Shown here: piece after piece, positions 45,001 through 48,000 of the stretch
Layout of the letters: each line of letters begins with the position of its first letter
Numbering within the stretch: the first letter of the stretch is position 1
From: Escherichia coli
GTDB taxonomy: Bacteria; Pseudomonadota; Gammaproteobacteria; Enterobacterales; Enterobacteriaceae
Direction: 5' to 3' (one strand)
NCBI RefSeq assembly: GCF_029227855.1
Contig: NZ_CP074356.1
DNA length: 64,000 nt
Program-made: the position numbers

Positions 45001-48000
45001 ACCGGTGGCGCTCACGCCGCGGTGGTGACAGCGGTAGCTAAAGCTGCGTTTAACTCGGCGGTTGATGCTGTACGAGCAGGCGGTCGTGTTGTGGCTGTCG
45101 GTCTGCCGCCGGAGTCTATGAGCCTGGACATCCCACGCCTTGTGCTGGATGGTATTGAAGTGGTCGGTTCGCTGGTCGGCACGCGCCAGGATCTCACAGA
45201 AGCCTTCCAGTTTGCGGCCGAAGGCAAAGTGGTACCGAAGGTCGCCCTGCGTCCGTTAGCGGACATCAACACCATCTTTACTGAGATGGAAGAAGGCAAA
45301 ATCCGTGGCCGTATGGTGATTGATTTCCGCCGCTAAGAGGCTTTGCTGCGACTGCCATGATCGGGTCGCAGCCTGTTTTGCGAGACGCTTTCCGCAATTT
45401 CACTCTTCTTCTTTTCCTCCCCCATCTTTCCCCTCACAATTCGCGAAAACGTAGCGAAATTTGTTGCGCTGCACGGAACAATAGTGATAATGTTCCTTTC
45501 GAAGGAACAAGGATGAAGAGATGATAATGAATTTCAGACACAAGGGATTGCGTGACTTGTTTCTTCTCGGCAAAACCTCCGGCGTTATACCGACGCAAGT
45601 CAAACGATTACGCCACCGACTCGCTGTGATTGATGCAGCAAGCTGTCTTGCTGATATCGATATGCCCGGTTACCGACTACACCCGTTAAGCGGTGATCGC
45701 GATGGAATTTGGGCGATATCTGTCTCGGGCAACTGGCGAATCACATTTGAATTCGTCAATGGCGATGCATACATACTGGATTACGAGGACTATCACTAAT
45801 GAAAATGGCCAATCATCCCCGCCCGGGGGACATTATTCAGGAATCACTGGACGAGCTTAACGTCAGCCTGCGCGAGTTTGCCAGAGCAATGGAAATTGCG
45901 CCCTCAACGGCAAGCCGATTGCTGACAGGAAAAGCGGCGCTCACTCCGGAAATGGCGATTAAACTTTCCGTGGTGATCGGCAGTTCGCCGCAAATGTGGC
46001 TGAATCTGCAAAACGCCTGGAGTCTGGCAGAGGCAGAAAAAACGGTGGATGTGTCGCGACTGCGCCGTCTGGTTACGCAATAAAATAAATATCCTCCGGC
46101 ATAGCCGGAGGTTTTTCAAATGCGCCTATAAGGCTCTCTTACCAGCCGCGCCCTAACAGGCGCACACGATCTGACATTTGCATCCAACTTCGTTACTTAC
46201 GGCCCGTAAACGGGCTGCCCGGATAGGGAATCGATAACTGCTCTCCCATTTTATCCTCTTCAAGCTGGTGCTTTATGTAATCCTGTATCTTCGCCGTGTT
46301 CTTACCCACCGTATCGACGTAGTACCCTCTGCACCAGAACTCCCTGTTCCTGTATTTGAATTTCAAATCACCAAACTGCTCGTAAAGCATCAGACTGCTT
46401 TTCCCTTTCAGATATCCCATAAAGCCGGATACGCTCATTTTGGGCGGGATCTCCACAAGCATATGGATATGATCTGCACAGCATTCAGCTTCCAGAATCC
46501 GTACGCTTTTCCACTCACACAGCTTTCTCAAAATACTGCCTATTGCTCTACGCTTCTCTCTGTAGAACACCTGTCTTCGGTATTTTGGCGCAAAAACTAT
46601 GTGATATTTACAGTTCCATCGGGTGTGCGCTAAGCTCTTTTCGTTCCCCATTGGGACCCCCTTTTGATTTCTTGTTTGACACTTGCAGTTGCCAGACCGC
46701 AAAGTGTTTTAACAAATCAAAAGGGGTTTTAATAACTGGCTCAAAGCTGAAAGCTTTCCGGAACCCCCAGCCTAGCTGGGGGTTTTCTGTGCACAAAAAA
46801 TGGCGCTTCTTAAAGCGCCATTTTCAGCTTAAAGTTCAAAAGAGATTATATCCCTTCTTCACTCTCTTTTTTCGCTTCTGCCTTCTCGATTTCACGATAC
46901 CAGCGCGGATGGTGTTTCTTCGCCCAGCGACGGCTCACCTTTCCTTCGATCATCCCTTTAATCGATCCTTTCACCCAGAATGCCATATACATATGGATCA
47001 GGATGGCGTGGATCAGGATGATACCCGCAGCCGCGTGGATCAGCAGGCTATAACGGACAACCTGTATCGGGAAGTACTGCGCAAAGTACGGACGCCAGAT
47101 AATCACCCCGGTCACCAGCAGCACGAAAATCATGCTCATGATCGACCAGAACATCATCTTTTGCCCGGCGTTGTACTTACCGACATCCGCCACTTTGTGC
47201 TCATTGCCTTTTAATACTTCGACAATGTTCAACAGCCACGGAATATCTTTCTTATCCGGGATGTTGTGATGCACAAAACGCACAAACATAAACATCAGCG
47301 CGACGAAAATCGCAATGCCGAAGAACGGGTGCAAAATGCGTCCCATCTGCGGCGTACCGAAGGTTTGCGTCAGCCATTGCAGCGTCGGGAAGAAGAACGA
47401 AATCCCGGACAGCGCCACCAGGAAGAAGCAAATCACCACGGTCCAGTGACAGGCGCGATCAATAAACTTGGTGCGCACAATCATTTTCGACTTACTCATG
47501 ATGATCCTCCTCGTCATCGTCCACTTCCTTATTCGGGCCAATACCGATGTAGTGGAAAATCAACCCGGCAAAAGTGGCAATAAAGCCAGCCGCTGCCAGC
47601 GGTTTCAACGCGCCTTTCCACAGGCTTACCGAGGTGTCGATCTTCGGATCTTTCGGCAGACCGTGATACAGCTCCGGCTGATCGGCGTGATGCAGCACGT
47701 ACATAACGTGCGTACCACCGACCCCTTCCGGGTTGTAGACGCCAGCATGTTCGTAACCACGCGCTTTCAGTTTCGCCACGCGCTGTTCCGCCAGCTCCAG
47801 CATCTCCTTCTTGGTGCCGAAGTGGATAGCCCCGGTCGGACAGGTTTTCACACAAGCCGGTTCCTGGCCGACGCTGACGCGATCGACGCAGAGCGTGCAT
47901 TTATATACCCGGTTATCCTCTTTGTTGAGGCGCGGAATATTAAACGGACACCCGGCAATGCAGTAACCACAGCCGATGCAGTTTTCCGACTGGAAATCAA

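What the first reader, a model, noticed from the sequence alone, without database searches (positions are those of the whole stretch)
46118..46825. IS200-family element inserted between the higBA terminator and the end of fdnI
A complete IS200-type tnpA with both characteristic left-end hairpins lies about 20 bp downstream of the fdnI stop codon and immediately after the higA terminator. K-12 has no IS200 here to my knowledge, so this marks a strain-specific insertion. The IS200 left-end terminator hairpin (46797-46824) is now the first stem-loop downstream of fdnI and may act as the fdnGHI terminator. The insertion also puts a mobile element directly beside a toxin-antitoxin module.
Basis: partly seen in the sequence, partly recalled or inferred. 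Interest (0 to 1): 0.5.

Follow-up and report, generated by a model that had tools for sequence, protein, structure and literature searches.

The report
IS200 copy in a shared terminator
This is an ordinary, intact IS200-type insertion sequence that landed in the T/A tract of the terminator shared by the convergent genes yddM (higA) and fdnI.

Summary
A complete IS200C-type element is present, but at about 46084-46795 (712 bp, ends uncertain by 1-2 nt), not 46118-46825. Empty sites in other E. coli, and IS200 copies at other loci, settle the hairpins. The "higA terminator" hairpin (46093-46111) is the IS right end. The "IS200 left-end terminator" (46797-46824) is the native bidirectional yddM/fdnI terminator. 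The real left-end hairpins are 46762-46784 and 46658-46726.

fdnI therefore keeps its own terminator. It is yddM whose first downstream hairpin is now supplied by the IS.

The insertion is lineage-specific: 305 of 5426 complete E. coli genomes carry an IS200 here, and K-12 does not. The copies belong to two IS200 subtypes that differ by 3.7%, while the flanks differ by 0.3%. They also sit in slightly different registers of the A tract. The site was therefore probably hit more than once.

The likely reason is target choice. In 29 independent IS200 copies from E. coli and nine other enterobacterial genera, the left end abuts a GC hairpin plus T tract. A strict rule scored 24 of 29 as terminator-like, against 3% of control T-run ends.

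Adjacency to the HigB/HigA module looks incidental, because five of seven carriers examined lack the toxin gene. The element is known and already annotated in RefSeq, so interest is low.

The parts
46084..46795 (-). IS200C-type insertion sequence, 712 bp, with ends uncertain by 1-2 nt because both lie in an A/T homopolymer
   Evidence: Empty-site alignments. Ends are shared with IS200 copies at other loci. Left-end nt 1 is set from the published hairpin positions, nts 12-34 and 69-138 (PMC4513863). There are no terminal inverted repeats.
46193..46651 (-). tnpA, a Y1 (HUH) transposase of 152 aa. It is intact and carries the HUH motif (DHIHM) and the RGYYV tyrosine region.
   Evidence: NCBIfam transpos_IS200 1.9e-43. 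Pfam Y1_Tnp 4.5e-38. PDB homologues 2ec2 and 2a6m. RefSeq annotates it as WP_000526135.1 in an identical genome.
46762..46784 (-). True IS200 left-end hairpin. In Salmonella IS200 this is a bidirectional Rho-independent terminator that shields tnpA from incoming transcription.
   Evidence: Perfect 10-bp stem (pair I8). It forms the start of the Rfam STnc490 match. Fold. Function is taken from PMC4513863 and PMC5435999.
46658..46726 (-). [quoted passage not shown] The region is complementary to the antisense RNA art200.
   Evidence: (pair I2). Function is taken from PMC4513863.
46093..46116 (.). IS200 right-end hairpin CCTCCGGC-ATA-GCCGGAGG followed by TTTTT on the plus strand. It is now the first terminator-like structure after yddM.
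   Evidence: Present in all IS200C copies at other loci. Flagged as terminator-like on both strands. Folds at -15.5 and -15.9 kcal/mol.
46797..46824 (.). Native bidirectional intrinsic terminator shared by yddM (plus strand) and fdnI (minus strand).
   Evidence: Present in empty sites GB089 and 19KM1831. Perfect 12-nt arms (pair I3). Folds at -19.2 kcal/mol in the fdnI sense, z = -4.2.
46846..47499 (-). fdnI, the gamma subunit of formate dehydrogenase-N
   Evidence: NCBIfam PRK10179 1.1e-146. Annotation.
45799..46083 (+). yddM, a HigA-family antitoxin. Its stop codon TAA (46081-46083) directly abuts the IS.
   Evidence: TIGR02607 4.5e-27. The protein WP_000781370.1 is identical in genomes with and without the IS.
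45521..45799 (+). HigB-like toxin gene. It lies on a 421-bp segment (45373-45793) that most E. coli, including K-12, lack.
   Evidence: Pfam HigB-like_toxin 1.5e-17. Present in 1328 of 5426 genomes. Segment boundaries.

Best explanation
An intact IS200C copy, one of about 24 BLAST places in the 100%-identical genome E. coli JNEC-KY178 (some may be partial), sits in the A/T tract between the yddM stop codon and the hairpin of the terminator that yddM shares with the convergent gene fdnI.

How it got there (mechanism inferred from the family): IS200/IS605 elements move as single-stranded circles made by a Y1 HUH transposase. They insert 3' of a short specific target without target duplication. 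For this IS200 group the target appears to be the T tract that follows an intrinsic-terminator hairpin, with TT always next to the left end. tnpA ends up co-directional with the terminated gene.

That preference explains three things: why the element is here, why the site holds two IS200 subtypes in different lineages, and why the insertion is probably harmless.

Consequences (inferred):
- fdnI keeps its own hairpin followed by six T.
- yddM gains the terminator-like IS right-end hairpin 10 nt after its stop codon.
- tnpA sits behind two terminators in tandem.
- The neighbouring HigB/HigA module is unrelated to the insertion.
For: Identity of the element:
- tnpA and the left-end RNA structures are identified.

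Boundaries:
- Empty sites read GCAAT-A7/A8-TGGCGC. The window reads GCAAT-A4-[709-bp core TAAATAT...GTGCAC]-A6-TGGCGC.
- AA before TAAATAT is conserved at every right-end junction read, including those next to C, T or G.

Distribution:
- 305 of 5426 genomes have the junction. K-12 and most others have an empty site.
- IS cores fall into two subtypes that differ at 26-30 of 709 positions. The fdnI-fdnH flank differs at 5 of about 1600 positions between the window and ES1.

Target rule:
- All 7 E. coli loci (fdnI, bhsA, osmE, carB, plaP, araE and one more), and 22 further copies in nine other enterobacterial genera, have the left end abutting a hairpin plus T tract.
- A strict automatic rule scores 24 of 29 as terminator-like. 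It scores 2.9% of control T5-9 run ends and 0.2% of random positions in the window that way. Binomial P is about 1e-32.
- TT precedes GTGCAC in every copy with readable flank.

Orientation:
- In the six named loci, tnpA is co-directional with the upstream gene.
- On the K-12 map all six upstream genes are co-directional with replication. That puts the tnpA-sense strand on the lagging-strand template, as reported for this family (PMC5027513).

Literature:
- The left-end terminator and Shine-Dalgarno hairpin functions are from PMC4513863 and PMC5435999.
Against: - The exact ends cannot be fixed inside the homopolymer. The net insertion is 711 or 712 bp depending on whether the ancestral tract was A8 or A7.
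- One of the 29 flanks (L026) has no convincing hairpin.
- Register differences between lineages (A4/A6, A3/A7, A2/A7, A2/A8) could reflect homopolymer slippage or assembly error rather than separate insertions. The same IS subtype occurs in two registers.
- Nothing was measured about transcription, so the terminator functions here are inferred from sequence and from work in Salmonella.
- Transposition of this copy and its target recognition were not tested. IS200 is reported to be nearly dormant (PMC4513863).
Confidence: 0.88

Rival explanations
1. The IS spans 46118-46825, its left-end terminator hairpin is 46797-46824 and now serves as the fdnGHI terminator, and the hairpin at 46093-46111 is the higA terminator.
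For: Both hairpins look like terminators. The 708-bp span matches the nominal IS200 length of 707 bp (PMC4513863).
Against: The 46797-46824 hairpin is present in genomes with no IS. The 46093-46111 hairpin is absent from empty sites and present in IS200 copies at unrelated loci. The Rfam match to the IS200 left end starts at 46784.
Confidence: 0.02
2. There was one old insertion at this site. The present diversity (two IS subtypes, several A-tract registers) arose later by gene conversion between IS200 copies and by homopolymer slippage. On this view the site is not a repeatedly used hot spot.
For: The same variant IS, with zero mismatches, occurs in registers A2/A8 and A3/A7. The A2/A7 type breaks the constant sum of flanking A residues. 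Empty-site tracts also vary between A7 and A8. Carrier genomes hold 12-35 BLAST places matching the IS-plus-flank query, which could act as conversion donors.
Against: The 3.7% divergence is spread along the whole 709-bp core while the flanks differ by 0.3%. The summed flanking A count is 10 in four of the five configurations, as expected for insertion at different positions of one tract. The general terminator preference predicts recurrent hits.
Confidence: 0.3
3. The copy is kept because it is useful. It might supply yddM with a terminator, or contribute to the pool of IS200-derived small RNAs (art200 and tnpA 5' UTR fragments) that act in trans, as shown in Salmonella.
For: The right-end hairpin plus TTTTT sits 10 nt after the yddM stop codon. 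IS200 5' UTR RNAs regulate invF in Salmonella (PMC5435999). The insertion is fixed in large clinical lineages.
Against: Most E. coli do without it. yddM already had a terminator. Fixation within clones needs no selection. No expression data exist for this copy.
Confidence: 0.07

Closest known systems
IS200 of Salmonella enterica, and IS200C as named by NCBI annotation in E. coli
   Same: A single tnpA gene. A left-end bidirectional terminator hairpin at nts 12-34. A Shine-Dalgarno-sequestering stem-loop at nts 69-138. The art200/STnc490 region. A length of about 710 bp. No terminal inverted repeats (PMC4513863).
   Different: Nothing essential. It is 712 bp against the quoted 707 bp. The 100%-identical genome has about 24 BLAST places matching the IS, against a reported E. 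coli average of 2.9 copies (PMC4513863).
IS608 (Helicobacter pylori) and ISDra2 (Deinococcus radiodurans), the mechanistic models of the IS200/IS605 family
   Same: A homologous Y1 HUH transposase (E about 1e-19 to 1e-16). Subterminal hairpins. Insertion next to a short fixed sequence at the left end. An orientation consistent with the lagging-strand template (PMC5027513, PMC2806898).
   Different: There is no tnpB. The apparent target is a T tract after a hairpin (TT at the junction), rather than TTAC or TTGAT. Target recognition by IS200 TnpA has not been tested here.
IS1541 of Yersinia
   Same: A close IS200 relative that also expresses STnc490 and occurs in many copies (PMC4513863).
   Different: It was not compared directly here. 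The one Yersinia copy recovered (L048, Y. pekkanenii) shows the same hairpin plus T7 left flank.

Membership tests
IS200/IS605 family, IS200 group | Encodes a Y1 (HUH, single catalytic tyrosine) transposase TnpA as its only gene | tested here: met
   NCBIfam transpos_IS200 147.7 bits against a cutoff of 55. Pfam Y1_Tnp 4.5e-38. PDB homologues. No other ORF with family support lies within 46084-46795.
IS200/IS605 family, IS200 group | No terminal inverted repeats, with subterminal hairpins at both ends | tested here: met
   No inverted pair links the two ends. Hairpins are at 46762-46784 (left end) and 46093-46111 (right end).
IS200/IS605 family, IS200 group | No target-site duplication on insertion | tested here: inconclusive
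   The net insertion is 711-712 bp within an A7/A8 tract, so a 1-3 nt duplication of A cannot be told apart from element ends. Sites with non-T right flanks (osmE, L034) show no repeat.
IS200/IS605 family, IS200 group | Insertion 3' of a short specific sequence that abuts the left end | tested here: met
   TT precedes GTGCAC in all copies with readable flank. A T tract follows a hairpin in 24-28 of 29.
IS200/IS605 family, IS200 group | IS200-specific left-end regulatory RNA structures (terminator, Shine-Dalgarno hairpin, art200 region) | tested here: met
   Rfam RF01405 at 144.6 bits against a gathering score of 56, covering the full model length.
IS200/IS605 family, IS200 group | Single-strand peel-and-paste transposition with a strand bias to the lagging-strand template | not testable with these tools
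   Only an indirect indication: six of six mapped copies are co-directional with replication on the K-12 map.
Type II toxin-antitoxin module, HigB/HigA type (the neighbour, not part of the IS) | A RelE-fold HigB-like toxin gene upstream of, and overlapping, a HigA (HTH) antitoxin gene | tested here: met
   Pfam HigB-like_toxin 1.5e-17. TIGR02607 antidote_HigA 4.5e-27. The genes are at 45521-45799 and 45799-46083 and overlap by 1 nt. Toxicity was not tested.

The most novel reading that the evidence does not exclude
IS200-group transposases may specifically recognise intrinsic terminators in single-stranded DNA, meaning a GC hairpin followed by a T tract, with cleavage after TT. That would make every terminator a potential safe landing site and explain repeated use of the yddM/fdnI terminator. 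The IS right end (hairpin plus ATATTTATT) itself resembles such a terminator, so target recognition might mimic end recognition. The enrichment is very strong here (24 of 29 against 3%). It could, however, reflect survival of harmless insertions rather than enzymatic choice. A preprint has already noted terminator-like sequences upstream of IS200/IS605 elements.
Probability: 0.45. Interest if true: 0.45.

Novelty: already known. Interest (0 to 1): 0.2.

Why it matters
For this window it matters little. The element is a standard IS200C copy that RefSeq already annotates at this exact site in hundreds of genomes. It probably leaves fdnGHI and yddM expression intact.

Two points are useful:
- The left-end flanks of 29 independent copies give a clear, testable target rule for IS200: the T tract of an intrinsic terminator, in the orientation of the terminated gene. 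IS200 transposes so rarely in the laboratory that I know of no experimental definition of its target choice (my own recollection; the library searches here turned up none).

The site is also a simple lineage marker. The junction register and IS subtype separate groups of clinical E. coli.

Tried and rejected
- The consensus terminator scan does not flag the native yddM/fdnI terminator, either in the window or in an empty site. The likely reason is that its stem extends into the A/T runs. I relied on folds and the empty-site comparison instead.
- Weak Rfam matches were rejected as chance or generic terminator resemblance, all far below their gathering scores: Ysr202 at 46010-46116, STnc320 at 46793-46830, and a second STnc490 match on the plus strand.
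- Classic IS200 and IS1541 papers (PMC146608, PMC106867) are not held in the library. Earlier statements on IS200 target sites could not be checked.
- I tried to fix the exact ends from K-12 empty sites for five other loci. T-run lengths differ between strains by 1-2 nt, so the ends stay ambiguous between 711 and 712 bp.
- GC skew in the window is too noisy to show the replication direction. I used K-12 map positions instead.
- A functional link between the IS and the toxin-antitoxin module was rejected, because most IS carriers sampled lack the toxin gene.
- My first automatic terminator rule undercounted, scoring 21 of 29, because A-T pairs absorbed the T tract. I replaced it with a rule applied identically to the controls.

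Full report
**What is in the sequence**

The region holds five genes in this order:

| Gene | Coordinates | Strand |
|---|---|---|
| adhP | 44296-45336 | + |
| HigB-like toxin gene | 45521-45799 | + |
| yddM, a HigA-family antitoxin | 45799-46083 | + |
| IS200-type tnpA | 46193-46651 | - |
| fdnI | 46846-47499 | - |

The tnpA product matches NCBIfam transpos_IS200 (1.9e-43) and Pfam Y1_Tnp (4.5e-38). Its closest solved relatives are Y1 transposases, including IS608 TnpA. Rfam RF01405 (STnc490, the IS200 left-end RNA region) matches 46661-46784 on the minus strand over its full length at 144.6 bits. The window is 100% identical over this region to E. coli JNEC-KY178, where RefSeq annotates the same genes, including an "IS200C family transposase".

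**Where the element really ends**

I aligned the window with a genome that has no IS here (GB089) and with one carrying a different IS200 at the same place (ES1). I then read the junctions in eight genomes.

- Empty sites read yddM...GCAAT-A7 (or A8)-TGGCGCTTCTTAAAGCGCCATTTT...fdnI.
- The window reads GCAAT-A4-[TAAATATCCTCCGGCATAGCCGGAGG ... GGGGGTTTTCTGTGCAC]-A6-TGGCGC...

The hairpin at 46797-46824 is therefore native DNA. It is a bidirectional terminator shared by the convergent genes yddM and fdnI. It has perfect 12-nt arms and folds at -19.2 kcal/mol in the fdnI sense.

The hairpin at 46093-46111 belongs to the IS. It is absent from empty sites and present in IS200C copies at bhsA, osmE, carB, plaP, araE and elsewhere.

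The right end is AATAAATAT..., starting at 46084, because AA is conserved even beside C, T or G flanks. The published positions of the two left-end hairpins are nts 12-34 and 69-138 (PMC4513863). They put nt 1 at 46795. This gives 46084-46795, or 712 bp. An uncertainty of 1-2 nt is unavoidable because both ends lie in an A/T run and empty-site tracts vary between A7 and A8. There are no terminal inverted repeats.

- fdnI keeps its own terminator hairpin, now followed by TTTTTTGTG instead of T7-8ATT.
- The IS left-end terminator (46762-46784) comes second, not first.
- The yddM stop codon TAA (46081-46083) now directly abuts the IS.
- The first structure after the yddM stop is the IS right-end hairpin followed by TTTTT. 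The simple scan flags it as terminator-like.

Whether either change affects transcript ends was not measured.

**Distribution**

- A junction-specific search finds an IS200 at this site in 305 of 5426 complete E. coli genomes (306 by coverage).
- K-12 has none. It carries two copies of a 178-bp unit made of a terminator-like hairpin plus a REP-like palindrome.
- Only one genome, JNEC-KY178, has the window's exact junction.
- In an even sample of 60 of the 305 carriers, 34 have one more A on the fdnI side and 23 have two more.
- Carriers include an O102:H6 strain, an avian O78:H4 strain and many clinical isolates. The carriers listed show 12-35 BLAST places each for a query that also includes flanking sequence.

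**One insertion or several**

The seven carrier junctions examined:

| Genome | A residues on yddM / fdnI side | IS subtype | Toxin gene |
|---|---|---|---|
| Window (= JNEC-KY178) | 4 / 6 | IS200C | present |
| O102:H6 M2021 | 3 / 7 | IS200C | absent |
| APEC O78:H4 | 2 / 7 | IS200C | absent |
| 2009C-3133 | 2 / 7 | IS200C | absent |
| ES1 | 2 / 8 | variant | absent |
| A1_136 | 2 / 8 | variant | absent |
| 24A16CRGN010 | 3 / 7 | variant | present |

The IS cores fall into two subtypes. Copies of the IS200C type differ from each other at 1-7 of 709 positions. The variant type differs from them at 26-30 positions, and its three copies are identical to each other. The fdnI-fdnH flank differs at only 5 of about 1600 positions between the window and ES1.

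This tenfold excess of divergence inside the IS argues that the two subtypes arrived separately, or that one was overwritten by gene conversion. The summed A count is 10 in four of the five configurations. That fits insertion of one unit at different positions of a single tract. However, the same IS subtype occurs in two registers and one configuration sums to 9. Slippage or assembly error therefore cannot be excluded. I rate repeated insertion as more likely than a single event, but not as shown.

**Why here**

In every E. coli copy examined, the left end abuts a GC-rich hairpin followed by four to eight T, although in the plaP copy a G interrupts the run 3 nt before the end. In the six loci with a named upstream gene this looks like that gene's intrinsic terminator, and tnpA points the same way as the gene (fdnI, bhsA, osmE, carB, plaP, araE).

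A scan of one genome per species with the left-end sequence gave 25 more loci, 23 of them with a readable left flank. They come from Pluralibacter, Brenneria, Citrobacter, Kluyvera, Mangrovibacter, Entomohabitans, Raoultella, Kosakonia and Yersinia. All but one of the readable flanks show the same arrangement.

With one automatic rule applied to all sets, the fractions scored as terminator-like were:

| Set | Terminator-like |
|---|---|
| Independent IS200 left flanks | 24 of 29 |
| Ends of T5-9 runs in the window | 7 of 241 |
| Random positions in the window | 8 of 4000 |

The binomial P is about 1e-32. Four of the five failures are visibly hairpin plus T tract.

The two bases before GTGCAC are TT in every copy. 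The third base back varies among T, A, C and G. The right end finishes TTATT. A target of the form TTNTT that resembles the right-end cleavage site would fit how the family works, but this is inference.

On the K-12 map all six upstream genes run with replication (the oriC and dif positions are from my own knowledge). That places the tnpA-sense strand on the lagging-strand template, as described for IS608 and ISDra2 (PMC5027513). [quoted passage not shown] The general pattern is therefore not new.

**How it works**

The element has everything described for IS200:

- a Y1 HUH transposase;
- a left-end bidirectional terminator, reported to stop about 85% of incoming transcripts in Salmonella (PMC5435999);
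- a 5' UTR stem-loop that hides the ribosome-binding site;
- the region complementary to the antisense RNA art200 (PMC4513863).

Sitting directly behind the fdnI terminator, tnpA is doubly shielded from fdnGHI read-through. That shielding is inferred. Transposition by a single-strand circle and insertion 3' of the target are taken from the family (PMC5027513, PMC2806898) and were not tested here.

**The toxin-antitoxin neighbour**

The toxin gene lies on a 421-bp segment (45373-45793) that is present in 1328 of 5426 genomes. It is absent from K-12, which has an orphan yddM. Among seven IS carriers examined, five lack the toxin and two have it. The closest relative of the window in this segment, 19KM1831, has the toxin and an empty IS site. 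The two features are therefore independent, and the adjacency carries no evident meaning.

**Verdict**

This is a known, annotated insertion sequence in a typical location. Interest is low. The only point of wider value is the clear terminator-target pattern.

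Noticed in passing
window 45373-45793: The HigB-like toxin gene and its upstream region form a 421-bp presence/absence segment. It is present in 1328 of 5426 complete E. coli genomes. It is absent from K-12 and many others, which keep yddM as an orphan HigA-family antitoxin encoding an identical protein.
   Followed up: partly
L002 (K-12 derivative) 1694-2067, equivalent to the window's IS site: In K-12 the yddM-fdnI spacer holds 2.1 tandem copies of a 178-bp unit made of a terminator-like hairpin plus a REP-like palindrome. FDAARGOS_1292 has one unit, and GB089 and 19KM1831 have none. 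The spacer measures 7-8, 185 or 363 bp.
   Followed up: partly
window 45855-46062 (yddM): The window's yddM differs from the O102:H6-type IS carriers at 11 positions within about 210 bp. Neighbouring adhP and fdnI differ by about 0.6-1.5%. Only two genomes are at least 99% identical to the window over higB-yddM. This suggests a recombined segment ending near the IS.
   Followed up: partly
window 46661-46784, minus strand: The Rfam STnc490 model matches the tnpA-sense strand, from the left-end terminator through the 5' UTR. The published art200/STnc490 RNA is antisense to the tnpA 5' UTR (PMC4513863). The model's strand appears to be the mRNA leader rather than the antisense RNA.
   Followed up: no
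genome of the window (NZ_AP045174.1) and relatives: The best-matching genome gives 24 BLAST places for a query holding the IS plus flanks, and other carrier genomes 12-35. The published E. coli average is 2.9 IS200 copies (PMC4513863). This suggests a past burst of IS200 activity in these lineages.
   Followed up: no
L004 (ES1), L020, L021, L023 at the yddM stop codon: In the A2 register the IS abuts GCAAT, so the last two bases of the yddM TAA stop codon are supplied by the AA at the IS right end. The protein is unchanged.
   Followed up: yes
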